The notes under the pieces are model-generated. The model did no database searches. It saw only the letters and a program-made list of their open reading frames with translations, and was not told the origin of the DNA. A stretch of 25,918 bases of DNA from a virus: UHGV virus genome UHGV-0362220. One strand, 5' to 3'. Below, piece after piece: positions 1 to 11,863 of this stretch. Each line of letters begins with the position of its first letter. The first letter of the stretch is position 1. The position numbers were made by a program, and so were the translations under genes.

Positions 1-74
1 CACAACATCCGAGGACAGCAACACCCGATACTTTTTCCTGGCTTCCAGCAACGGGGTTTCTTCCTCCGTTGCAT
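1..74 (-). CDS. hypothetical protein, N-terminal fragment running off the left edge (MQRRKKPRCWKPGKSIGCCCPRML...)
   Basis: ATG at 74..72 preceded by AGGTGA about 7 nt upstream, 17 nt after the stop of the 92..385 ORF; frame open to the window edge. Only 24 codons visible, cysteine-rich; identity unknown. Confidence 0.2.
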   Translation of the reverse strand, partial: MQRRKKPRCWKPGKSIGCCCPRML

Positions 75-91
75 ATACAGCTCACCTTTTT

Positions 92-385
92 TCACCCACG
101 ATTAACCAACAGCCAGACCAGCAGACACGCCACCACCGGCACAGCAAAATCCATCAGGCTTGCCACATCCCAAGCTCGCGGATCAAAACCGCCCCACCAC
201 GGCATATTCATTCGCTTGCCATGCCCGAACATTTCAATCCAGCGATATTCTGCCTGGGTATGTTCACGCGCAATGAAGAACGTACAACCGGCTATCGCTC
301 CGTAAGCCCAGTTTCCGGTAAAAAGACCAACCAGTATCTGCGCAGCCACAGCACAAAGTGCATGAAGTAAGGGGCTTATATCCAT
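92..385 (-). CDS. hypothetical small membrane protein (97 aa, two predicted transmembrane helices)
   Basis: ATG at 385 preceded by AAGGAGG with a 5 nt spacer; two hydrophobic segments (LLHALCAVAAQILVGLFTG... and LMDFAVPVVACLLVWLLV) flank a W/G-rich loop (NMPWWGGFDPRAW). No family recognised. Confidence 0.6.
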   Translation of the reverse strand: MDISPLLHALCAVAAQILVGLFTGNWAYGAIAGCTFFIAREHTQAEYRWIEMFGHGKRMNMPWWGGFDPRAWDVASLMDFAVPVVACLLVWLLVNRG

Positions 386-397
386 TATTTCCTCCTT

Positions 398-676
398 TCA
401 GCTCCATTCCCGAAGCGGTGTTTCCAGCTCCACGACATAATCAGAGAATACAGAAACATCAAACAAGTCATCAAGAATGCGAATGTTGACAAAATAACCG
501 TCATTCCGGACACAGACAGGTTCTCCCTCTTCTGTTACCCCTGTTTCTGTGTAGGTGAAACCAATTTCATCGACTAACAGTTTATTCTGGAGGTCTTCAT
601 CCTCCTCCCAGTCAAGAGATGACAGGAAGGATTTAAACTCTCTGTTACCAGGAAATTTCAAAGTTAAATCTTTCAT
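398..676 (-). CDS. hypothetical acidic protein (92 aa), translationally coupled to the side tail fiber gene
   Basis: ATG overlaps the stf stop as ATGA (673..676); AAGGAGG lies in the last stf codons 4 nt upstream. Strongly acidic (WEEDEDLQ..., TEEGEP...). Sits where lambda has tfa, but no Tfa similarity recognised. Confidence 0.6.
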   Translation of the reverse strand: MKDLTLKFPGNREFKSFLSSLDWEEDEDLQNKLLVDEIGFTYTETGVTEEGEPVCVRNDGYFVNIRILDDLFDVSVFSDYVVELETPLREWS

Positions 677-2700
677 ACTGCCTCCTTGATTTGCCTGTCA
701 TTTAATTCTTTAAACCAGACTCTGAAATTTCTGATGTGTCCAAACAAATGACGCGTTCCTGCTGCGGTCTGCCCACCAAACCGGTACGATGTTGCTGTAA
801 CTCCAAATATTTTACCATTAAGGTTTGTTGTATAATTACCATTGCATATTGCATTTACTGATAAATCAGATTTAGCTCTCACACCCACAATGAACCTTTC
901 TCCATCTGAGGCAATTTGTGGCTGAACCATTCCTACGTTGGCGCTTATCTTTCCTGTTGCAACAAACCCCAGCGATAAATAATTATCATCAATACTGTGC
1001 CCTCCAACATCAAATATCCTTGGCGCAACATTGGGCGGTGTACTCCAGTTCCTGCTTACTTCGCACAATACCGTAAAAGGCCGTGTTGACAGGTTATTCT
1101 GCGATGGGATAGTAACTACATCACTTGCGCGTGTTGTTGGCATTGTAGTTACAATAAATGACGATGCCGTATTGCCCAGTTCAATTTGCGGCGTCGTCAT
1201 GGTTAATGTTGAGTCATCATAGAATGTCTCATTACTTATTTTATTTGTCATATAAAAAGCACAGTTAACGGTATCAATGTCCGTATTAGCTGTATAAGTG
1301 GCCTCATAGTAGGTCCACTCGCCCTGTTGTTCAGCTTTGGCTGTTATAAGGGATGTATTACCGCTTACTGTTGCGATCCGGGTATCCAGATCAAGATAAG
1401 AGTCAGCAGAGAAGGTATCTGTTCCACCAATAATAACTGAAACTCTTAACCTGCATCGTGCTTTAGCGCCTTTAACCCGGCACGAAAAAGTGAAACATTC
1501 ACCACTTGCCAGCGGGAATCTGTCTGCTGCAACCACACCATGCACAGTATAGCCACCTGTTGTTCCCACTATACTTTCCGTGGGTGTCACCGTGGCATAA
1601 TTGAACCCCTGTTTATCAGTGCCAAATGTTTTATTCAGTGCGGAATGAACAGTCCATGAGTCTGGTTTATTTGAGTTCCTCAGATAATTTGTCCTCTGTC
1701 CTTCAATCAATAAGCCATCGCGCTCAAATCGCGGTTCGTCAACTTCAGCAAGCTTGAGTTGGCCGGACTTATTAATATACGTTGCTGTTGAAGCACGTTT
1801 AAACTTAACAATCTTGTCGCCTGGCATTGTTATTTCATCGTCACCAATAACTATCTTTTTATAAGATGGCGAAAAACCCGTAATCATATCCAGTGAATCG
1901 TTAAACGGTATCCACACATCAGGCAGCGGCGGCACTATATTCGCACAGGGCTCTGCAGTCACTTCCGCTGCGGCTTCTGCGCGGTCTGCCGCCTTTTCAG
2001 CTCGTGTCGCTGCCGACAGAGCCTCATCCTTTTTCTGCCCGGCCTTTGTTGCGTCTGCTGCGGCCTCCCGCGCTTTTGTGGTGGCGACTCCGGCATTTTC
2101 AGCGGCTGACTCTGCATTACGGCGGGAAGCCTCTTCACTGTCTGCGGAGGCTTCTTCTGACGCACGGGCATTTGTCTCTGAACGTTCTGCCGCTGTTGCT
2201 GCGTTTTGTGCGGCTGTTTTTGAAGAAGCTGCCGCTTTCGCGCTGTTACCTGCATTCGTCTCTGATGTTTTCGCCGCGTTCCTGGACGATGCCGCTGCTG
2301 TTTCTGATTTCTTTGCTGCCGCTGCGCTCTGAGAGGCGGCTTCAGCGTTGCGTGCCGCCTCTTCCACCATCTTTTCAAAACGATACAGTGCCTCCGGACA
2401 AACATCATCTTCTGTTGCAGCGCCCAGAAAATCATTCAATGTCCCCGGCTTAGAATCCTCATACACGGTGATGGTCCCGGCATGTGAAGGCGGAAAACCT
2501 TCAACCAGCAGGGCGACGCTGTACTGGCCATACTCAACATCCATGCTGTAACGTCCGGCTTCATCCGGATTTTCTGAGGCCACCGTGTTCACCACAACTG
2601 TGGTGCTGTTACGTTTTGCTTTGAGCTGAATGGTGCAGTTCTGTATCGGTTTTCCTGCACCGTCTTTCAGCACACCTGAAATCTGTACTGCCATATTCAC
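673..2700 (-). CDS. stf: side tail fiber protein (lambda Stf-like N-terminal anchor, Ala/Ser/Glu-rich linker, unrelated C-terminal domain)
   Basis: First ~110 aa (MAVQISGVLKDGAGKPIQNCTIQLKAKRNSTTVVVNTV...EAGRYSMDVEYGQYS...PPSHAGTITVYED) match lambda Stf as recalled; residues ~110-240 are low-complexity A/S/E/K-rich; the C-terminal ~430 aa were not recognised. Confidence 0.85.
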   Translation of the reverse strand: MNMAVQISGVLKDGAGKPIQNCTIQLKAKRNSTTVVVNTVASENPDEAGRYSMDVEYGQYSVALLVEGFPPSHAGTITVYEDSKPGTLNDFLGAATEDDVCPEALYRFEKMVEEAARNAEAASQSAAAAKKSETAAASSRNAAKTSETNAGNSAKAAASSKTAAQNAATAAERSETNARASEEASADSEEASRRNAESAAENAGVATTKAREAAADATKAGQKKDEALSAATRAEKAADRAEAAAEVTAEPCANIVPPLPDVWIPFNDSLDMITGFSPSYKKIVIGDDEITMPGDKIVKFKRASTATYINKSGQLKLAEVDEPRFERDGLLIEGQRTNYLRNSNKPDSWTVHSALNKTFGTDKQGFNYATVTPTESIVGTTGGYTVHGVVAADRFPLASGECFTFSCRVKGAKARCRLRVSVIIGGTDTFSADSYLDLDTRIATVSGNTSLITAKAEQQGEWTYYEATYTANTDIDTVNCAFYMTNKISNETFYDDSTLTMTTPQIELGNTASSFIVTTMPTTRASDVVTIPSQNNLSTRPFTVLCEVSRNWSTPPNVAPRIFDVGGHSIDDNYLSLGFVATGKISANVGMVQPQIASDGERFIVGVRAKSDLSVNAICNGNYTTNLNGKIFGVTATSYRFGGQTAAGTRHLFGHIRNFRVWFKELNDRQIKEAV

Positions 2701-2707
2701 TCCACAA

Positions 2708-2733
2708 ATAAAAAAGGCACCATTTCTGGTGCC
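2708..2733 (-). terminator. tJ-like intrinsic terminator between J and stf
   Basis: Minus-strand RNA: stem GGCACC (2733..2728), loop AGAAAU, stem GGUGCC (2721..2716), then UUUUUUAUUU. Ends 8 nt before the stf start codon. Confidence 0.5.
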
Positions 2734-2752
2734 CGAATTTGGGTTTTAAAAT

Positions 2753-5700
2753 TCAACTGATACTGATGCCGGCTGTTGATTTCTTCATCACGACAACAAG
2801 AAGGTCGCTGATACTGGTCGTTGGCGTCCAGTTATTTGCACCATATGAAGAAACATTGAAAGTCAGGGTGACATGGCCGTGTCCGGCAGGCATATCAATG
2901 ACTGATGAAAATACCCTGCTGACATCCGTCGCGGGTTGCTGAAAGATTTCCTGTCCGTTCTTCAGCACCTGCAGCTTACAGGTTGAATACCAGTATGACT
3001 GTTGGTTGTTGCTGTTGAAGTTTTCATGCTTACCACCGCGAAACAGAACGGGGGGGACGACTATCTGACGGTCAAAAGCCTGGTCATCGTACACAGTGAC
3101 CGTTATTGTACCGCTGGCATAACTGCCATTTCTCGGAAAGGCTTTTCCCACCGTTTTGACAATATCACCTTCAATCTGGTTAGCTGACAGTTTTCCCAGA
3201 ATCCGACAGTTCTGGTTAATCGTGACATTATTGAGCGTCCCGGAGTTCGCATTCACGTTACCGCTGATATCCGCATTTCTCGCAGAAAGTCGACCATCAG
3301 GTGTCAGTGAAAACGTTGGGGGATTGCCACCGCTGGTAATGGTGGGAGCCGTCAGATATTTCAGGAACACTTCGTTCATGAATATCTGATCGCCCTGCCC
3401 AACAAACATCGGCTTTGTATTGCCATTCGCAGGATTAATCATCGCAATCCTGTCCGCCGCCAGCAGCACCTGACTCTGCATACCGTCAGGGGTATTCTCA
3501 ATACCGGCACCAATACCCGCGATATAAAGGCGTCCGTCCTGCATCTGCTGCAGCTTCACAGCCCACATGCTGTTCAGGTTATTATTTGTATCAACCTGAA
3601 CCTTCTGTATCTGCTGGATCGCTGCACTCTGGTCTTCCAGTTTCTTATTGACGGTCTGCGTGATTTCATTGCTGACATCCGTAATGGACGTCCTGATTTC
3701 AGCCAGGTCAGGCGCAAGCTGACCGTTATCAATCTGCGTCCACAACTCCTGAGCCAGATGGGTTTTCCCTATCTCTCCTTTGAAAAAATCCAGATAGCCG
3801 GATGCATCATCACTCGGCTGGCCAACAGCCTCCACAAATGCCGATTTGCCAACGGTGTTCACACTGCGAATGTAAAAATAATAATCATGGCCCGGTTTGA
3901 TATTGATACTGGCGGCTATCCAGTACAGCGCCGTACCAAGATAACGCGCGCTGGCTTCAACCTGCCTGATATCCGCAATCCGCTTTTCCGAGAACCAGAA
4001 CTCAAACTGTACCGTCGGATCATAAACGGCAAGATGCGGCGTTGCGGTTATCTGAAAATAGCCCGGCGTCAGCTCAATCCGCGATGGCGCTGCCGGTGCG
4101 GCAATCCGGAACGATACCGACGCCGGATCCCCCTGCTGCCCCCACGCATTTACCGCCCGGACTGTCAGCCTGTAGTTCCCCAGCGCCAGTTGCCTGAAGC
4201 GGTATGTGGTTTCCGTCGTCCTGGCCGTGCTGACCAGCCGCTCACTGCCGTCATCCGCTGCCACGGTCAGGCGAAGCATAAAGCTCACCCCCTTCACCAC
4301 CTTCGGTGTGTCCCATCGCGCCAGCACCTGATATTCCCCGCTGTCTGCGGTGACTTCTGCGGTCAGGTGCTGCACCGCGGGCGGCGTGACACCATTCACC
4401 GTGCCACTCTGTTCGCCGTCAAAGTGCGCCCCGTTATCCACGATGGTCTCTTTTTCCGGCACATGCTGCACGGCGGTGATGGCATACGTGCCGTCGTCGT
4501 TTTCACGGATACTCACGCAGCGGAACAGTCGCTGGCGCAGCGTCGGCAGCTTCAGCCCCCATACGCTGTATTCAGCAACACCGTCAGGAACACGGCTCAC
4601 TTTCACCTTCACGCCGTCGGTGACGGACTGAACCTCCACGCTGACCGGATTGCCACTTCCGTCAACCAGGCTTATCAGCGTGGTACCGGAGGATGGCAGC
4701 GTGATTTCACGGTCGAGCGTCAGCGTCCGGGTCTGGCTGTTCACCGCCAGCACACGACCACCGGTGCTGATACCGGCATAGTCATCATCGCAGATTTCAA
4801 TGACATCCCCCGGTACATGGCGAAGCCCTTCAGCACCCACGCTGAAGTCCACGGTCTGCGTTTCCAGCAGCTCCGTTTTAATCAGCCACAGCCCGGCGCG
4901 GTGTGCCTGCCCCCGGCTGGTACAGCCAAAGGCATCCATCTTCGTGACGTTACGGCCGTAACGGGCAATGGCCTGCGTATCCTCCACGAGCTCTGTCGCC
5001 GTCTCCCAGCCGTTATCCGGGTCAATCCAGTTCACCTCAACGGCATTATGGCGGTCCTTCAGGGCGCTGAAGCTGTAGCGGAACGGCGCGCCATCATCCG
5101 GCATCACCACATTACTGCGGTTATAGGTCCACACCTTATCTGATGGTCGGTCCTGCACGAACGTCAGCGTCTGCCCGTTCCATACCGGCATACAGCGCAT
5201 CGCCGAGCAGAAATCACTGAGCACATCCCACGCCTTGCGCTGTGTGGTCAGGTACGCATTACAGGTAATGCGCGGCTCCGTGCCGCCAAAGCCGTCCGGC
5301 ACCGACTGGTCGCAGTACTGGCCGATGACATACAGCGCCCATTTATCCACATCCGCCGCACCAAGACGTTTCCCCATGCCGTAGCGCGGATGGGTCAGCA
5401 TATCCCACAGACACCAGGCCATGTTGTTGCTGTATGCCGGTTTTAACGTTCCGTCCCAGATACCGCTGTATTGCCGCGTCTGCGGGTTATAGTTCGACGG
5501 CACCTGCAGAATGCGCCCGCGAAGATGATAATTACGGCTCACCTGCTGGCTGCCGAACTGCTCCGAGTCCACCTGCACGCCAACCAGTGCCGTGTTCGGG
5601 TAGCACTGTTTCACATCGATGATTTCGGTGTATGACGACCAGAGCGTTTTGTTCAGCAGCTGGTCTGTGGTGCTGTCCGGCGTCATCCTGCGCATCCGGA

Positions 5701-6235
5701 TATTAAACGGGCGCGGCGGCAGGTTATCCACCACCACCGAGGCCAGATACTGCGAGGTGGTTTTGCCCTTAATGGTGATGTCTTTTTCCGTCACCCAGCC
5801 ACCGTTACGCTGTATCTGAACCAGCAGGCGAACTTCCGACGGATTCCTGTCTCCCTTTGAGGTGGTTTCCACCAGTGCCTGTACACCGAAGGTAAAGCGC
5901 AGACGGTCGATGTTTGCCGACGTGATGGTCCGGGTGATCGGCGTGTCATATTTCACTTCCGTACCCAGCACCGTCTCGGAGCCGGAGGATTCAAATCCCT
6001 CCGGCGGTGACTGCTCCTGCTCACCGGCCCGGAACACCACCGTGACGCCGGATATATTGGTATTCCCCTCACTGTCCAGCACCGGCGTACTGTTCAGCAG
6101 CACGCTTTTTAATCCATCCACCGGACCTTCAACCGGCCCTTCGCTGATGGCATCGATCACACTCAGCAGCTGCGTGGACTTCAGGTTGTCCTTCGCTTCG
6201 CGCGGGGTATGCCCCTTACTGCTGCCTTTACCCAT
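2753..6235 (-). CDS. J: tail tip central fiber / host specificity protein J (1160 aa)
   Basis: Near-identical to lambda J over the N-terminal ~790 aa as recalled ([34 protein letters not shown]...); central and C-terminal parts diverge. Confidence 0.95.
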
Positions 6236-8287: not shown

Positions 8288-8628
8288 CAGTTCACCACCT
8301 GCTCAATCGTACAACTGAAATCACTGTGCCTGGCGTTATCTGTGACGCTCCACTCCCGGCACACCACCCTCACCGTCAGGTTATGTTTCGGCGGTCGCCA
8401 CAAAAAGGCACGGTAACCACCATGCCACGATAAAAATTCATCCAGCCAGCGCCGGGTTGGTTCATCCGTCACCCGGAACACCGCCTGAAACGTCTTCAGT
8501 CTGGCATTAAGTCCCGTCGGTCGGCGCTGTTCATAACCGTCACCAAACCGAACCCTCACCACCGACGGTTTCTCACTCACCTGCATCCCTTCACGCGGGA
8601 CCAGATGCAGCGTTTTTATCTCAGCCAC
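8287..8628 (-). CDS. M: minor tail protein M
   Basis: Lambda gpM-like (...VRFGDGYEQRRPTGLNARLKTF...; ends EQVVN as in lambda M). Position between H and L. Confidence 0.9.
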   Translation of the reverse strand: MAEIKTLHLVPREGMQVSEKPSVVRVRFGDGYEQRRPTGLNARLKTFQAVFRVTDEPTRRWLDEFLSWHGGYRAFLWRPPKHNLTVRVVCREWSVTDNARHSDFSCTIEQVVN

Positions 8629-11600
8629 TCAGCATTCCTCCGTCACGTCGCATGGACAGCATCACCGCCTGCACCCGCTGGTCAATCAGCTGCACAAGAC
8701 TGCCTGCCGCCTCCGCCCCTATCTGTCCGTTAGCCCCGTCATTCTGAATGGCGATGTGGTAGACCGGGGAATACACCAGACCGGCACTGCCGTTCATACT
8801 GCCCACCGCGCGTACGCCCAGCGAGCCATCCGCCGCCCGGGTCAGGGGCATAATGGCTTCAGGTCCGGCTTCCCCCATCAGCCCGGCCCCTTTTGCAAAC
8901 GCAAAGTACGTGGGCGTGTCCACAATGCTGTTGCTGTACGCACTCAGGTTTGCCGAGGTATACACGCCGCCTTTTGCATTGGCCACCGCACCGCCCAGCC
9001 AGTCACCAATGCTGCCAATAAATCCTCCCGCACCGGACATACCGTTTGCCGCCGTCTTAATTCCGTTGACAATCGCAGCATTCATAAGAACTTTTGAGAT
9101 TTCCTGCAGTACGGATGAGGCCCAGTTGCGCCATTCCACTTTGTTTCCGTTCAGCATCTCCGTGATGTTATTCACCATCCCTGAGATACCCTCCGTCGCA
9201 AGCTGTGCTGCCTGTGAGGCGTAATCGGATGCATTGTCCACCCAGTTACTGAGCCCCTCCTGCAAGCCTTTCTGCCAGTCCGCACGCTGCGCATCCGATT
9301 CGGCATAAAAGGCTGCCTGGTCCTTAAGGCGTTCGCTCAGATACTGCGCGTTCTGTGCCCGTGCCTGTCTGTAAAAATCCTCACTGATATCCCCGGTCTG
9401 ATACTGAGACTGAAGGTCCGCATCCTTCTGGCGGAAGCTGTCACGGATCTGCTGCAACTCCCGCATGCGTTCCCTGGCTCGTTCTCCCTGCCCGTATCCC
9501 AGCAGTTCGGCTTCATTTGATGCACGCGCAGCCACATTATCATTCTTCAGGGTCTCTTCCCGGGATCGCAACTGTTCCCGGATTTTTTGCTGGTCAATCA
9601 GGGCCGCGTTACGCAGCAGTTCCTGCTTCTGCATCTCCGTCAGGGTTTTCAGTTCGCCCTGCGCAGTCTGGTACTTCAGCTTCGCCAGCTCTGTATTCTG
9701 ACCCGCCAGTGCCAGTTGCTCTTTCTGCTGCTTCAGTAGCCGGGAAAAACTGTCTTCCGCTTTTTCCGTCTCTGATTTTCCACCCCGGGATTTAGGTTTG
9801 TTCGCCTCGTTATTACGCCAGGCTTCCAGAGCATTACTGATATAACGCTGTCTCGCCTCCTGATACGAATCCCCCACAAAACCAAGGTCATCCGCCGCAT
9901 ACCCCAGCCGGGCACGCTCTTTTTCCTCCCCCTTCAGTCGGGACAGGGCCAGCTCACGTTCTGTTTTTGTCAGGGCGCTCTGCTGTTTATCATCCAGGGT
10001 GGCCTGCGGCAGCCGTAACGGTACATTCACCAGTCCCTGACGCTGCTGAAGCAGTTCATTCCCCAGCCCCAGCAGACGGTTGAATTCCGTATGCTGACCG
10101 TTCATAACCAGCATGGACTGGTACACCTTATTCTGCTCTGCCGCCTGCTGACGAATTAACGCCACACGACGGTCTTCCAGCCCGGCAAGCACATCCTGAA
10201 TGGACTGCGCTTTTTCCTGCATCTGTGCCAGACGGGACTGCTCAACGGCAAGCTGCTCTGTTGCCTGAGAAAGCCCTTCCGTCACGGTCTTCACCGATGT
10301 CAGATGGTTTATCATGAATCCGTCACCGGTTGTCCAGCCAGGGTTAGCCAGAACATACTGATATCCAGCGATTTTTTCCTGCAGGGATTTCACCCGGCTG
10401 GCCTGTTCATCAATCAGCCGGTTCTGCTCTGCCAGCGCCGCCCGTGTTCGTCCTTCATTATCTGAGGCTTCAGGCAAAGACATTGACGGCGTTTTATGCG
10501 CGATTTCATCTATCGTCAGTGCATACTGGCGCGCTGACTCCCTGGCCTGCTCCTGATTCTGGTACAGCGTATACCATGCTGCTGCCCCCAGCATCACCAG
10601 TCCGGGTACGCCACCAACCAGTCCCAACGCACCAGTCATCAGACGTGAGCCCACCGCCGTTGTACTGTTCAGCTCATTCTGGGCTGCGGTTCTGGCAGCA
10701 ATATTTCTGTTCAGGCGTTCCTGTGTGGCCGCCAGACGGGCTTCTGCAGCAATCTGCATCTCCGTCCCGCGGGCTGCCGCCACAGCCTGCTGTGCACGGT
10801 ACACGGCTGCCCTTGCCCGCGCCGTGGCAATCTGCGTCCCCCTGAGCTGTGCTTCCGCCAGTGCCACTTCATTACGTGCTGCCGTCACAAGTCCTGCCGT
10901 GGCAGACACCGCTCCGGAGGCCATATTGCCAAAGTACCGGGCAACCCCGACGGCAACCAGCGCCCCCGCGGCTGTTGCCACATTATCAATATTACCGGCA
11001 ACACCGTTCAGCACGCCGGAGAGCGTTTTCGTCGCTCCGCTGGCTTCATTCGCGCCACCCACCCAGGCCATAAAGGCGTTTTCCACCTTTGTGATCCCGT
11101 CAGAGACCGTTTCCGGCATGGCGGCATATTCATCACGCAATACCCCCAGCTGGCTGATTAACGCAGGAACGACTTTATCCGCCGTCAGTTTGCCGTCGTC
11201 CGCCATCGCCTTAAGGTCTTTACGGGCCACGCCCATACCCGCAGCCAGTGCACGTACGATCCGGTCTCCGCTTTCATTGACCGAATTAAATTCCTCACCG
11301 CGTAACACACCCTGTGCCAGCGCCTGGCTGAACTGGGTGATCACCGAGCCCGCCTCTGCCGTACTGGCACCGGAGATTTTCAGCCCCGTGGAAATGGCCT
11401 CCGTCACCTTCAGCACATCATCAGCACTGTAACCATATTCACGCATTGAGGCTGCCGAGCGGGCAAACAGGGCCGCATTATCTGAAAATGCCGTGCCCGT
11501 CCGCTGGCTGATATCCATCAGCACTTTCTGTGATGACGAAAATTCATCGGATGACTGCGACGCCTGTTTCAGTCGGGCATTCACGGAACTCCATTCATCG

Positions 11601-11863
11601 GCCAGAGAAATCAGGTGTCCGGTGGCAAAGGCACCTGCAAATGCCCCCGCCGTTCCGGCAGCTGAAGCGCGGATTTCCGTCAACTGGCTGTTCAGCTCAG
11701 CCAGGGCGCGTCGCTGCACCCGGGCGACTGCGGCAGCCTGACGCCCGCCATTCTGCAGGGTCCGGTAATATTCACTGCCCATGCGGGAAGCCCGCTGGAT
11801 CTCCGACTGGAATGACTGCGAATTTGCCGAAATTTTGATAATCAGTTCACGTAACGTCGCCAT
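8621..11863 (-). CDS. H: tail tape measure protein (1080 aa)
   Basis: Long, mostly alpha-helical A/Q/E/R-rich protein with a Gly-rich hydrophobic segment, located between G-T and M. Length implies a tail somewhat longer than lambda (H is 853 aa there). Confidence 0.9.
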   Translation of the reverse strand: MATLRELIIKISANSQSFQSEIQRASRMGSEYYRTLQNGGRQAAAVARVQRRALAELNSQLTEIRASAAGTAGAFAGAFATGHLISLADEWSSVNARLKQASQSSDEFSSSQKVLMDISQRTGTAFSDNAALFARSAASMREYGYSADDVLKVTEAISTGLKISGASTAEAGSVITQFSQALAQGVLRGEEFNSVNESGDRIVRALAAGMGVARKDLKAMADDGKLTADKVVPALISQLGVLRDEYAAMPETVSDGITKVENAFMAWVGGANEASGATKTLSGVLNGVAGNIDNVATAAGALVAVGVARYFGNMASGAVSATAGLVTAARNEVALAEAQLRGTQIATARARAAVYRAQQAVAAARGTEMQIAAEARLAATQERLNRNIAARTAAQNELNSTTAVGSRLMTGALGLVGGVPGLVMLGAAAWYTLYQNQEQARESARQYALTIDEIAHKTPSMSLPEASDNEGRTRAALAEQNRLIDEQASRVKSLQEKIAGYQYVLANPGWTTGDGFMINHLTSVKTVTEGLSQATEQLAVEQSRLAQMQEKAQSIQDVLAGLEDRRVALIRQQAAEQNKVYQSMLVMNGQHTEFNRLLGLGNELLQQRQGLVNVPLRLPQATLDDKQQSALTKTERELALSRLKGEEKERARLGYAADDLGFVGDSYQEARQRYISNALEAWRNNEANKPKSRGGKSETEKAEDSFSRLLKQQKEQLALAGQNTELAKLKYQTAQGELKTLTEMQKQELLRNAALIDQQKIREQLRSREETLKNDNVAARASNEAELLGYGQGERARERMRELQQIRDSFRQKDADLQSQYQTGDISEDFYRQARAQNAQYLSERLKDQAAFYAESDAQRADWQKGLQEGLSNWVDNASDYASQAAQLATEGISGMVNNITEMLNGNKVEWRNWASSVLQEISKVLMNAAIVNGIKTAANGMSGAGGFIGSIGDWLGGAVANAKGGVYTSANLSAYSNSIVDTPTYFAFAKGAGLMGEAGPEAIMPLTRAADGSLGVRAVGSMNGSAGLVYSPVYHIAIQNDGANGQIGAEAAGSLVQLIDQRVQAVMLSMRRDGGMLSG

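What the first reader, a model, noticed from the sequence alone, without database searches (positions are those of the whole stretch)
92..676. Two-gene accessory cassette after the side tail fiber: coupled acidic protein plus 2-TM membrane protein in place of tfa
Lambda has the tail fiber assembly gene tfa downstream of stf. Here there is instead a 92-aa acidic protein whose ATG overlaps the stf stop (SD inside the last stf codons) and a 97-aa protein with two TM helices and a W/G-rich loop, with a near-perfect SD. Neither resembles Tfa, Lom or Cor as I recall them. Hypotheses: a dedicated chaperone for the unusual Stf C-terminal domain paired with a membrane protein for superinfection exclusion or receptor masking, or a toxin/immunity-like pair. 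A third ORF starts at 74 and runs off the window.
Basis: partly seen in the sequence, partly recalled or inferred. Interest (0 to 1): 0.55.

Follow-up and report, generated by a model that had tools for sequence, protein, structure and literature searches.

The report
Tail-fibre partner gene plus membrane gene
Downstream of the side tail fibre of this phage-21-like E. coli prophage lie two real but uncharacterised genes that are independent rather than a pair: a small acidic protein that always accompanies this type of fibre tip in many unrelated phages, so it is probably a fibre helper or adaptor, and a small inner-membrane protein found only in the temperate phages and in some bacterial chromosomes.

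Summary
Both ORFs exist on the minus strand as described. A is 398-676 (92 aa, pI 4.05) and its ATG overlaps the stf stop (ATGA). B is 92-385 (97 aa). Each has an AAGGAGG Shine-Dalgarno sequence, and both are under purifying selection (dN/dS 0.34 and 0.18). The "third ORF" is 25 aa long, abuts sitD, and is not a gene.

The window matches phage 21, which has the same gene order: J, stf, A, B, then convergent sitDCBA. A and B are not one cassette.

- **A (phrog_1361):** it followed a homologue of this Stf's C-terminal ~425 aa in all 17 phage genomes examined (lambdoid, T1-like, Dhillonvirus, Queuovirinae, T5-like, rV5-like). It shares that region's low GC. It has no relative in Pfam, NCBIfam or PDB. 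It is most likely a dedicated fibre partner, either an assembly chaperone or a distal adaptor.
- **B (phrog_1443):** it occurred in the 4 temperate genomes of those 17 and in none of the 13 virulent ones. Elsewhere it follows unrelated tailspikes and fibres, and it is a stand-alone chromosomal gene in Aeromonas. It has three predicted helices, and its invariant loop is predicted to be cytoplasmic. Its function is unknown. General exclusion or host-membrane modulation is possible. Masking of a specific receptor is unlikely.

The toxin/immunity reading is rejected. Interest is moderate.

The parts
2715..2734 (-). Intrinsic terminator between J and stf (GGGCACCAGAAATGGTGCCT followed by a T-run)
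   Evidence: Found by the terminator scan. The phage 21 record annotates a terminator at the same place. stf, A and B therefore form a separate unit downstream of J that is read through only during antiterminated late transcription (inference).
673..2700 (-). Side tail fibre gene stf (675 aa, GTG start, intact ORF)
   Evidence: Pfam phage_tail_N matches residues 3-133 at E=2.8e-67. NCBIfam GTA_spike_fiber matches 331-525 at E=7.5e-18. phrog_1419 matches 197-675. There is no Peptidase_S74 and no Tfa. PDB 9e7m 'tail fiber protein' matches residues 3-96.
673..1950 (-). Horizontally mobile C-terminal part of Stf (residues 251-675). It has low GC and is shared with virulent sipho- and myoviruses.
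   Evidence: tblastn finds it in 216 phage records. GC is 0.43-0.44, against 0.55 for the Stf N-terminus and 0.56 for J. Residues 251-330 are conserved (68-100% identity), while 331-600 are only about 30% identical between alleles.
681..687 (-). Shine-Dalgarno sequence AAGGAGG for gene A, inside the last stf codons
   Evidence: Read directly from the sequence.
398..676 (-). Gene A: a 92-aa acidic cytoplasmic protein (phrog_1361, pVOG VOG7707), the fibre partner
391..397 (-). Shine-Dalgarno sequence AAGGAGG for gene B, 5 nt upstream of its ATG
   Evidence: Read directly from the sequence.
92..385 (-). Gene B: a 97-aa inner-membrane protein (phrog_1443) with three predicted helices and the invariant motif GRExxQAEYR...R..MPW..GF...W
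   Evidence: The AlphaFold2 model has pLDDT 94. The family has 422 representative clusters, all 57-146 aa, with no fusions. The conserved residues are H8, R40, E41, Q44, A45, E46, R58, W72 and P83. dN/dS is 0.18. GC is 0.53, unlike A.
1..91 (.). Spacer between B and the convergent sitD gene.
   Evidence: In strain 4/1-1 and in phage 21, sitD ends immediately before window position 1. The ORF is 25 aa long and is not annotated.

Best explanation
The region holds two independent accessory genes that are co-transcribed with stf. It is not a two-gene system.

Gene A encodes a small acidic cytoplasmic protein made by translational coupling to the end of stf. It is an obligate partner of the transferable C-terminal region of this fibre type (phrog_1419). 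I think it most likely binds the extreme C-terminal part of the Stf trimer and acts as its separate assembly helper. That would give it the job done by Tfa in lambda, or by the C-terminal intramolecular chaperone in T5- and K1F-type fibres. It may stay attached as a cap. In phages with a third gene, that cap would help dock a distal fibre.

Gene B encodes a small three-helix inner-membrane protein from a family that also exists as an ordinary chromosomal gene in some Proteobacteria. Temperate phages of several morphotypes have placed it directly after their receptor-binding gene. It is not needed for the fibre. It most likely acts on a conserved host inner-membrane process from the cytoplasmic face, to the benefit of the lysogen or the infected cell. 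General exclusion of incoming phage is the leading guess.

Shown: the gene anatomy, the co-occurrence patterns, the selection and the composition. Inferred: every biochemical role.
For: **A is linked to the fibre**
- A homologue of A lies immediately after a homologue of Stf residues ~130-675 in 17 of 17 phage genomes examined. These span Jouyvirus and other lambdoids, Drexlerviridae, Dhillonvirus, Queuovirinae, Tequintavirus and a Vequintavirus.
- Six of these genomes were picked from the Stf search alone, not through A.
- The same pairing holds in the IMG/VR prophage loci that were retrieved through A itself.
- The ATGA overlap is conserved.
- A has the low GC of the Stf C-terminus (0.42 against 0.43), not that of the Stf N-terminus, J or B (0.53-0.56).
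- Identity of A tracks Stf residues 601-675 (Spearman 0.81), not the variable 331-600 region.
- Stf has no Peptidase_S74 domain or Tfa. rV5 gp41, T5 Ltf and DT57C LtfA/B carry the intramolecular chaperone and lack A. The nomine and IrisVonRoten alleles lack that domain and have A.
- A is retained under purifying selection in prophages that have no distal fibre.

**B is independent of A**
- B is present in 4 of 4 temperate genomes and 0 of 13 virulent genomes among those 17.
- B occurs without A in these places:
  - after a P22-like tailspike;
  - after HP1-like fibres in Leclercia and Aeromonas;
  - after pectate-lyase tailspikes in Citrobacter and Salmonella;
  - after a Tfa-like gene in phiHAP-1;
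  - after J in Comamonas.
- B stands alone between a Pirin gene and a RIO1 gene in several Aeromonas species.
- Its start is usually coupled to the upstream gene, with spacing from -4 to +16 nt.
- Across the family, the N-terminus plus the loop hold 6.4 K+R on average, against 0.7 for the turn plus the C-terminus. This places the conserved loop in the cytoplasm.
Against: - No experiment or complex prediction shows that A touches Stf.
- A is 90-93% identical between alleles whose Stf residues 331-600 are only ~30% identical. It therefore cannot be a fold-specific chaperone of the receptor-binding domain itself.
- In 12 of the 13 virulent phages, A sits between a proximal fibre and a distal fibre. 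The distal fibres share an N-terminal motif, and most carry their own chaperone domain. This fits an adaptor at least as well as a chaperone.
- Tight 1:1 translational coupling also suits a structural subunit.
- For B there is no functional evidence at all. No sigma-70-like promoter was found in front of it, so expression in the lysogen is unproven.
- The chromosomal copies in Aeromonas and sphingomonads argue for a housekeeping-type activity rather than an anti-phage one.
- The topology is a prediction, and TMHMM disagrees with it.
Confidence: 0.5

Rival explanations
1. A is a structural subunit of the side fibre and not a chaperone. [quoted passage not shown] This compares with gp35/gp36 joining the half-fibres of T4. 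In phage 21-type prophages the distal fibre has been lost and A remains as a cap.
For: - In 12 of the 13 virulent phages and 2 of the 4 temperate phages examined, A is followed within about 6-110 nt (usually 9-12) by a distal fibre gene of 98-582 aa.
- In 12 of the 13 distal fibres aligned, the first ~18 residues are conserved (M-x-T-x-T-x-I-P-x-D-I-x-x-L-K) across five phage groups, although the rest differs. Dru_SM1 is the exception.
- Eight of the ten distal proteins scanned carry their own Peptidase_S74 chaperone domain, so they need a dock, not a chaperone.
- PMC11990801 predicts that the distal T-shaped fibre of IrisVonRoten attaches to the proximal fibre.
- ATGA coupling favours equimolar synthesis.
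- In two BASEL genomes, Bas32 and Bas34, the A homologue is annotated 'tail fiber protein'.
Against: - A is kept under purifying selection in hundreds of Stf-A-B prophages and in the myovirus nomine, none of which has a distal fibre gene after it.
- No virion proteomics showing A was found.
- The BASEL paper does not assign the small protein a role.
Confidence: 0.3
2. B is a host-physiology gene carried as cargo. It would be a phage-borne copy of a bacterial small membrane protein that modulates a conserved inner-membrane process such as a transporter, lipid-linked glycan synthesis or ion handling. It would improve the fitness of the lysogen and have no direct role against other phages.
For: - There are stand-alone chromosomal copies with conserved synteny in Aeromonas, and copies next to ligA and other housekeeping genes in sphingomonads.
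- The polar cluster (H8, R40, E41, Q44, E46, R58) is nearly invariant across Alpha-, Beta-, Gamma- and Deltaproteobacteria. This suggests a conserved ligand or partner.
- In this prophage it sits beside another cargo operon, sitABCD.
- It is absent from virulent phages.
Against: - In prophages it is nearly always coupled to the 3' end of the receptor-binding gene. In HP1-like and Salmonella prophages it sits inside the structural operon. That placement is odd for a pure fitness gene.
- No own promoter was detected.
Confidence: 0.25
3. B is a receptor-masking or adsorption-blocking protein matched to this particular Stf, as Cor and Llp are matched to FhuA-binding phages. A would be its partner.
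For: - Its position next to the receptor-binding gene resembles cor and llp. PMC13164509 reviews the cor cassette downstream of tail fibre genes.
- B has a Trp/Gly-rich loop.
Against: - B of 93-100% identity accompanies Stf alleles whose receptor-binding region is only ~30% identical.
- It also accompanies tailspikes and myovirus fibres of unrelated specificity.
- It is an integral inner-membrane protein without a lipobox, and the loop is predicted cytoplasmic.
- It does not match the Cor or Llp families.
Confidence: 0.05
4. A and B form a toxin/immunity or defence pair: a membrane toxin with an acidic antidote.
For: - The layout is two small coupled genes, one membrane protein and one acidic.
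Against: - The two genes separate completely: A without B in 13 virulent phages, and B without A in many prophages and chromosomes.
- Their GC content differs.
- There is no PADLOC hit.
Confidence: 0.02
5. B takes part in the late stage of the phage's own cycle, for example lysis timing or membrane-associated fibre or tail maturation.
For: - It is translationally coupled to late structural genes.
- It lies inside the tail operons of HP1-like prophages.
- It has the size and helix count of a class I holin.
- One of 80 family members gave a weak Phage_holin_8 hit.
Against: - Virulent phages with the same Stf-A module do without it.
- Chromosomal copies exist outside prophages.
- It lacks the charged C-terminal tail typical of holins. 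The related prophage in strain 4/1-1 has its own lysis cassette elsewhere.
Confidence: 0.08

Closest known systems
Lambda Tfa, Mu gpU and P2 gpG tail fibre assembly proteins (Pfam Caudo_TAP)
   Same: A is a separate small gene immediately 3' of the fibre gene, co-inherited with the fibre's C-terminal part. It occupies the place where lambda has tfa.
   Different: There is no sequence similarity (Pfam, PHROGs, NCBIfam). A is half the size (92 against ~190 aa). Its predicted fold is a three-stranded sheet with two helices, with no PDB relative. A varies much less than the fibre's receptor-binding region, whereas Tfa C-termini co-vary with the tip (own knowledge).
C-terminal intramolecular chaperone domain of fibres and tailspikes (Peptidase_S74; K1F endosialidase, T5 Ltf/pb1)
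   Same: It is the functional alternative at the same loci. rV5 gp41, T5 Ltf and DT57C LtfA/B end in this domain and have no A. The nomine, IrisVonRoten and phage 21 fibres lack it and have A.
   Different: A is a separate polypeptide, is not homologous to the domain, and has no protease motif.
T4 gp35/gp36 hinge and connector proteins of the long tail fibre, and the branched LtfA-LtfB fibres of DT57C
   Same: A is a small protein encoded between the genes of a proximal and a distal fibre protein. The fibre is predicted to be two-part (PMC4728585, PMC11990801).
   Different: There is no homology. A also occurs where no distal fibre exists. In DT57C, LtfB is thought to attach to LtfA directly, and no A homologue is described.
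Cor (T1, phi80, N15) and Llp (T5) receptor-blocking lipoproteins
   Same: They are accessory genes next to receptor-binding genes.
   Different: Cor and Llp are outer-membrane lipoproteins tied to one receptor, FhuA. B is a three-helix inner-membrane protein that is not tied to any receptor-binding type and has no lipobox.
Small inner-membrane exclusion proteins: T4 Imm, P22 SieA, HK97 gp15 (own knowledge)
   Same: They are small integral inner-membrane proteins that block DNA entry, and some are encoded as cargo in tail-gene regions. This is the best functional analogy for B if it is an exclusion factor.
   Different: No sequence or specific fold similarity was detected. The B family has chromosomal members outside prophages. 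No exclusion phenotype is known.
P2 Z/fun and the conversion loci after the P22 or epsilon15 tailspike gene (own knowledge)
   Same: They occupy the same genomic slot, directly after the fibre or tailspike genes of temperate phages, which is a classic site for lysogenic-conversion cargo. In phiHAP-1 B lies between the Tfa-like gene and the sheath gene, and in JEP4 between the tailspike and int.
   Different: B is not homologous to GtrA, Oac or Fun. It is usually translationally coupled to the upstream gene and does not have a detectable promoter of its own.

Membership tests
Tail fibre assembly protein Tfa (Pfam Caudo_TAP; lambda Tfa, Mu gpU) | Sequence match to the family profile | tested here: not met
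   A has no Pfam, NCBIfam or PHROG Tfa hit. Its only Pfam line is LUD_dom at E=0.1. A profile of 44 A sequences finds nothing in PDB.
Tail fibre assembly protein Tfa (Pfam Caudo_TAP; lambda Tfa, Mu gpU) | Gene immediately downstream of the fibre gene and co-inherited with the fibre's C-terminus | tested here: met
   Met in 17 of 17 phage genomes. The ATGA overlap and the low GC are shared.
Tail fibre assembly protein Tfa (Pfam Caudo_TAP; lambda Tfa, Mu gpU) | Required for trimerisation or folding of the fibre tip, and binds it | not testable with these tools
   This needs co-expression or a multimer structure prediction.
Intramolecular chaperone (Peptidase_S74) fibres | Peptidase_S74 domain at the C-terminus of the fibre | tested here: not met
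   The domain is absent from this Stf. It is present in the distal fibre proteins of related loci.
PHROG 1361 / pVOG VOG7707 (unknown function) | Full-length profile match | tested here: met
   A matches phrog_1361 at E=1.6e-39 over residues 1-91 of 92. The homologues in tonn, swan01 and nomine are labelled VOG7707.
PHROG 1443 (unknown function) | Full-length profile match | tested here: met
   B matches phrog_1443 at E=2.4e-58 over residues 1-96 of 97.
Lom / Ail outer-membrane proteins | Ail_Lom beta-barrel profile match | tested here: not met
   No hit for A or B. B is all-helical.
Cor / Llp receptor-blocking lipoproteins | Signal peptide with lipobox, and association with FhuA-binding phages | tested here: not met
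   B has no lipobox, is an integral three-helix protein, and is associated with many receptor-binding types.
Toxin-antitoxin or anti-phage defence pair | Strict co-occurrence of the two genes, and a match to known defence models | tested here: not met
   The genes separate. PADLOC gives no hit.
Holins (class I, three transmembrane helices) | Holin family profile, charged C-terminal tail, and location in the lysis cassette | tested here: not met
   Only 1 of 80 family members gave a weak Phage_holin_8 hit. The C-terminus is just N-R-G. In the related prophage of strain 4/1-1 the lysis genes lie elsewhere.
Superinfection exclusion membrane proteins (Imm, SieA, HK97 gp15) | Blocks infection by other phages when expressed | not testable with these tools
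   No homology was detected. The phenotype needs a plating assay.

The most novel reading that the evidence does not exclude
A defines a third, so far unrecognised solution to tail-fibre assembly, alongside Tfa-type chaperones and intramolecular chaperone domains. It would be a 10-kDa keystone protein that travels with a portable fibre tip between siphoviruses and myoviruses. It would complete the proximal fibre and also provide the socket for the conserved N-terminal plug (MxTxTxIPxDIxxLK) of interchangeable distal fibres, which would explain how branched, modular fibres are swapped. Separately, B would be a phage-captured bacterial membrane protein that temperate phages of every tail type link to their receptor-binding gene, giving a generic, receptor-independent exclusion mechanism that acts at the cytoplasmic face of the inner membrane.
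Probability: 0.2. Interest if true: 0.7.

Novelty: new variant of a known kind. Interest (0 to 1): 0.42.

Why it matters
The A-B pair, at 80% coverage or more, is present in 1,127 of 5,426 complete E. coli genomes. B-containing matches occur in 1,903 genomes, at up to 7 places each. In the RefSeq records inspected, both genes are annotated 'hypothetical protein'.

The Stf C-terminus plus A module is shared by widely used model and therapeutic phages: the BASEL collection, T5-like, T1-like and rV5-like phages. If A is needed to build or extend this fibre, anyone engineering host range by swapping these fibre tips must move A with them. The conserved N-terminal plug of the distal fibres would then be a ready-made docking rule.

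B is a compact, very conserved membrane protein family with no assigned function. It is linked to lysogeny, so it is a tractable candidate for a new exclusion or conversion mechanism.

None of this overturns current ideas. It fills two gaps in annotation.

Tried and rejected
- **Sequence libraries.** Pfam, NCBIfam and PADLOC scans of A and B gave nothing, and PHROGs gave only the two unknown-function families. PDB sequence and profile searches gave nothing. Pfam scans of 80 diverse B members gave only scattered weak hits that fit transmembrane composition (PhoR N-terminus 6 of 80, VirB3 4 of 80).
- **Domain fusions of B.** The exhaustive profile search found no protein longer than 146 aa.
- **Promoters.** None lies in front of A or B.
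- **Literature.** The accession numbers appear in no paper. The DT57C papers describe fibres with intramolecular chaperones and no A homologue. The BASEL papers model the proximal and distal fibres of IrisVonRoten but do not discuss the small protein. The rV5 and SH6 proteomics papers concern alleles without A.
- **rV5 small ORFs.** gp29, gp31 and gp38 are not A homologues.
- **Hypotheses rejected.** The toxin/immunity pair, Stf-specific receptor masking and a holin role are rejected. The reasons are given under the rival explanations.
- **Third ORF.** It is 25 aa long.
Full report
**What is there**

All genes of the finding are on the minus strand. The 1160-aa tail tip gene J (2753-6235) is followed by an intrinsic terminator at 2734-2715. 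Next comes an intact 675-aa side tail fibre gene, stf (673-2700, GTG start).

- The last stf codons read GAG GCA GTA TGA.
- The ATG of a 92-aa ORF (398-676, here called A) overlaps the stop as ATGA, and AAGGAGG lies 4 nt upstream of that ATG.
- The TGA of A is followed directly by AAGGAGG, then AAATA, then the ATG of a 97-aa ORF (92-385, here called B).
- A is acidic: pI 4.05, 22 D+E against 8 K+R.

- The ORF "starting at 74 and running off the window" is only 25 aa long. It stops 3 nt past the window edge. The stop codon of the convergent sitD gene lies there in every close relative. It is not a gene.
- B is predicted by AlphaFold2 (pLDDT 94) to have three helices (4-23, 26-52, 74-96), not two.

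**Where it comes from**

Window 1-2800 is 100% identical to prophages in many E. coli genomes. In strain 4/1-1 the prophage lies next to an icd fragment, with the sitABCD operon convergent on B. Phage 21 (OL657228, Jouyvirus) has the same gene order: J, terminator, stf, a hypothetical protein, a "putative membrane protein", then sitDCBA.

The A-B stretch, at 80% coverage or more, occurs in 1,127 of 5,426 complete E. coli genomes. Some match, mostly to B, occurs in 1,903 genomes at up to seven places each. In the RefSeq records inspected, both genes are annotated "hypothetical protein".

**Both are real genes of unknown family**

- Pairwise dN/dS among unique alleles has a median of 0.34 for A and 0.18 for B.
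- A matches phrog_1361 and B matches phrog_1443. Both families are of unknown function.
- Neither protein has a Pfam, NCBIfam, PADLOC or PDB sequence relative, whether searched as a single sequence or as a profile.
- The A model (pLDDT 92) is a small alpha+beta fold: strand 2-8, helices 11-20 and 27-32, a long hairpin 33-47/53-67, and a less ordered C-terminal tail ending in an invariant Trp.
- The B model matches only generic helical bundles.

**The fibre**

Stf has the lambda-type N-terminal attachment domain (phage_tail_N, residues 3-133). That domain matches the "tail fiber protein" chain of PDB entry 9e7m. An Ala-rich shaft follows. The C-terminal ~425 aa belong to phrog_1419 and include an NCBIfam GTA_spike_fiber domain (331-525). 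There is no Peptidase_S74 intramolecular chaperone domain.

PMC11990801 describes the homologous proximal fibre of the T5-like phage IrisVonRoten as carrying a galectin-like domain near its C-terminus.

The C-terminal 425 aa occur in 216 phage records. GC drops from 0.55 in the N-terminal part to 0.43 in the C-terminal part. Residues 251-330 are conserved among all alleles, while 331-600 are only about 30% identical between alleles. This is the usual picture of a swapped receptor-binding module.

**A belongs to the fibre**

I examined 17 phage genomes that carry this fibre type. Six of them were chosen from the Stf search alone, without reference to A. In all 17, a homologue of A (88-110 aa, hmmsearch E-values from about 1e-16 to 1e-46 for the six checked individually) lies immediately after the fibre gene. 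The stop and start codons nearly always overlap.

| Phage group | Genomes examined |
|---|---|
| Lambdoids | phage 21, PhiR49_1_star, PhiR47_1 |
| Temperate, 108 kb circular with ParA | PhiR41_1 |
| Drexlerviridae | KarlJaspers, PeterMerian, tonn, swan01 |
| Dhillonvirus | KarlBarth |
| Queuovirinae | JenP1, Dru_SM1, SA126VB |
| Tequintavirus | IrisVonRoten, L6jm, SelmaRatti, FFH1 |
| Vequintavirus (myovirus) | nomine |

Further points link A to the fibre:

- The fibre's N-terminus differs according to the tail it must attach to. The homology with this Stf always runs to the very C-terminus.
- A has the GC content of the Stf C-terminus (0.42), not that of J or B. Stf-C and A have evidently moved together.
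- Identity of A correlates best with the last 75 residues of Stf (Spearman 0.81) and not with the variable 431-600 region.
  - Phage 21 has an A that is 93% identical to the window's, but its Stf 331-600 is only ~30% identical.
  - KarlJaspers has an 81-88% identical Stf 331-525, but its A is only 49% identical.
- A therefore does not read the receptor-binding domain. It goes with the extreme C-terminus.

**Chaperone or adaptor?**

Two layouts exist. In most temperate lambdoids the order is Stf-A-B. In 12 of the 13 virulent phages and in two of the temperate ones, A is followed after about 6-110 nt (usually 9-12) by a distal fibre protein X of 98-582 aa. Eight of the ten X proteins scanned carry their own Peptidase_S74 chaperone domain. 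In 12 of the 13 X proteins aligned, the first ~18 residues (M-x-T-x-T-x-I-P-x-D-I-x-x-L-K) are conserved across five phage groups, although the rest differs. Dru_SM1 is the exception.

That conserved plug needs a conserved socket, and A is the best-conserved protein at hand. This supports an adaptor role, in line with the predicted proximal-plus-distal fibre of IrisVonRoten.

Other evidence points to a function on Stf itself.

- A is retained under purifying selection in the many prophages, and in the myovirus nomine, that have no X.
- At equivalent loci, alleles that end in an intramolecular chaperone domain lack A: rV5 gp41, T5 Ltf and DT57C LtfA/B.
- Alleles without that domain have A.

My best reading is a dedicated assembly partner of the Stf C-terminus that may remain bound as a cap and socket. 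I cannot separate the two roles with the tools available.

**B is a separate matter**

Among the same 17 genomes, B is present in the 4 temperate phages and in none of the 13 virulent ones. Its GC (0.53) differs from that of A.

B occurs without A in these contexts:

- directly after the tailspike of the P22-like phage JEP4, before int;
- after the Tfa-like gene of the myovirus phiHAP-1, before the sheath gene;
- after HP1-type tail fibres in Leclercia and Aeromonas salmonicida prophages, inside the tail operon;
- after or between pectate-lyase tailspikes in Citrobacter and Salmonella;
- after a giant J protein in Comamonas.

In these prophages its start lies between -4 and +16 nt from the upstream stop.

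The family also has stand-alone chromosomal members. One has conserved Pirin-B-RIO1 synteny in at least three Aeromonas species. Others lie next to ligA and other housekeeping genes in sphingomonads.

An exhaustive profile search found 422 clusters. All the proteins are 57-146 aa long, and none is fused to another domain.

Across the family H8, R40, E41, Q44, A45, E46, R58, W72 and P83 are invariant or nearly so, giving the motif GRExxQAEYR...R..MPW..GF...W. In the model these residues gather on the side of the membrane that holds the N-terminus. Counting K+R across the family gives 6.4 for the N-terminus plus the loop, against 0.7 for the hairpin turn plus the C-terminus. The positive-inside rule therefore places the conserved loop in the cytoplasm. 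This is a prediction, and TMHMM as quoted in the phage 21 record gives a two-helix model instead.

**What B may do**

Three points bear on this.

- Virulent phages with the same Stf-A module lack B, so it is not needed for the fibre.
- It accompanies receptor-binding proteins of unrelated specificity. Copies 93-100% identical go with Stf alleles that are only ~30% identical in the binding region. It therefore cannot be a mask for one receptor.
- It is an inner-membrane protein, so direct masking of an outer-membrane receptor is unlikely.

The link to lysogeny and the position right after the receptor-binding gene suggest a benefit to the lysogen or to the infected cell. That slot is a classic one for conversion and exclusion genes: P2 Z/fun, the P22 conversion genes and cor, the first two from my own knowledge and cor from PMC13164509.

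The leading guesses are a receptor-independent block at the inner membrane, as with T4 Imm or HK97 gp15 (own knowledge), or a host-physiology function inherited from the chromosomal family. No promoter was detected in front of B, so expression in the lysogen is unproven. I rate any specific mechanism for B as low confidence.

- The "dedicated chaperone" idea is reasonable for A and is supported by the distribution. An adaptor role is a serious rival.
- The "pair" idea, whether chaperone plus exclusion protein as one unit or toxin plus immunity, is contradicted by the independent distributions, the different composition and the lack of any defence-model hit.

**Novelty and interest**

Both families are catalogued (PHROG, pVOG) but unnamed and, as far as I could find, unstudied. 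The strict linkage of A to a widely shared fibre tip, and the conserved plug of the distal fibres, are useful and probably unpublished observations. They belong to a known kind of system, fibre accessory proteins. B is an orphan membrane family with an intriguing distribution. I score the finding as moderately interesting. It is real, common and testable, but not surprising in kind.

Noticed in passing
window 1 and upstream; L001 4551-8000; L002 5386-8835: The iron/manganese transporter operon sitABCD lies convergent to B and ends at the base before window position 1. Phage 21 itself carries sitABCD as cargo at the same place. In strain 4/1-1 the prophage lies beside a partial icd-like (isocitrate/isopropylmalate dehydrogenase family) pseudogene.
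   Followed up: partly
window 673-2700; L001 8673-10694: RefSeq/PGAP annotates this intact 675-aa stf ORF as two separate partial pseudogenes ('phage head spike fiber domain-containing protein' and 'prophage tail fiber N-terminal domain-containing protein'). This looks like an annotation artefact caused by the mosaic protein.
   Followed up: partly
window 673-2700, in hits H1-H3: In three of the best-matching E. coli genomes the 2.8-kb query matches in two pieces spanning about 4.05 kb, and an IS3-family ISEc52 transposase is annotated under the match. An insertion therefore interrupts this region in those strains. The exact insertion point was not mapped.
   Followed up: no
window 1711-1950 (Stf residues 251-330): This 80-residue segment is 68-100% identical in every fibre of this type, whatever the phage family. 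It lies between a variable shaft and a very variable receptor-binding part, and it coincides with the GC drop from 0.55 to 0.43. It is probably the recombination junction used for tip swapping.
   Followed up: partly
L090 5292-5996, L091 5289-6344, L004 5289-7013 and ten other loci: The distal fibre proteins encoded after A in other phages share a conserved N-terminal motif, M-x-T-x-T-x-I-P-x-D-I-x-x-L-K, followed by heptad-like repeats. Their remaining sequence and length (98-582 aa) differ. Most end in a Peptidase_S74 chaperone domain.
   Followed up: partly
L165 (phage nomine) against L168 (rV5) at the large tail fibre gene: Two Vequintavirus phages carry different solutions at the same locus. 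rV5 gp41 ends in a K1F-type intramolecular chaperone. The nomine fibre ends in the phrog_1419 module followed by a 110-aa A homologue.
   Followed up: partly
L006 6001-9645 (Aeromonas rivipollensis chromosome): The stand-alone chromosomal B homologue lies between a Pirin gene and a RIO1 kinase gene, and two lipid A acyltransferase genes follow. The Pirin-B arrangement recurs in A. aquatica and A. media.
   Followed up: partly
window 8621-11863 against L173 15448-18009: The window's tape measure ORF is 1080 aa, whereas the prophage of strain 4/1-1, which is identical over window 1-2800, has an 853-aa one. The head and terminase ORF sizes also differ. The fibre end is therefore shared between otherwise different lambdoid prophages.
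   Followed up: no
window 50-72: An inverted repeat, CAACGG-(11 nt)-CCGTTG, sits in the spacer between B and sitD. It could be a weak bidirectional terminator for the two convergent units, but the terminator scan did not call it.
   Followed up: no
L031, L046-L048 (IMG/VR prophages): In a few prophages the B ORF is called as 146 aa instead of 97. This may be a C-terminal extension caused by a changed stop codon. It was not examined.
   Followed up: no
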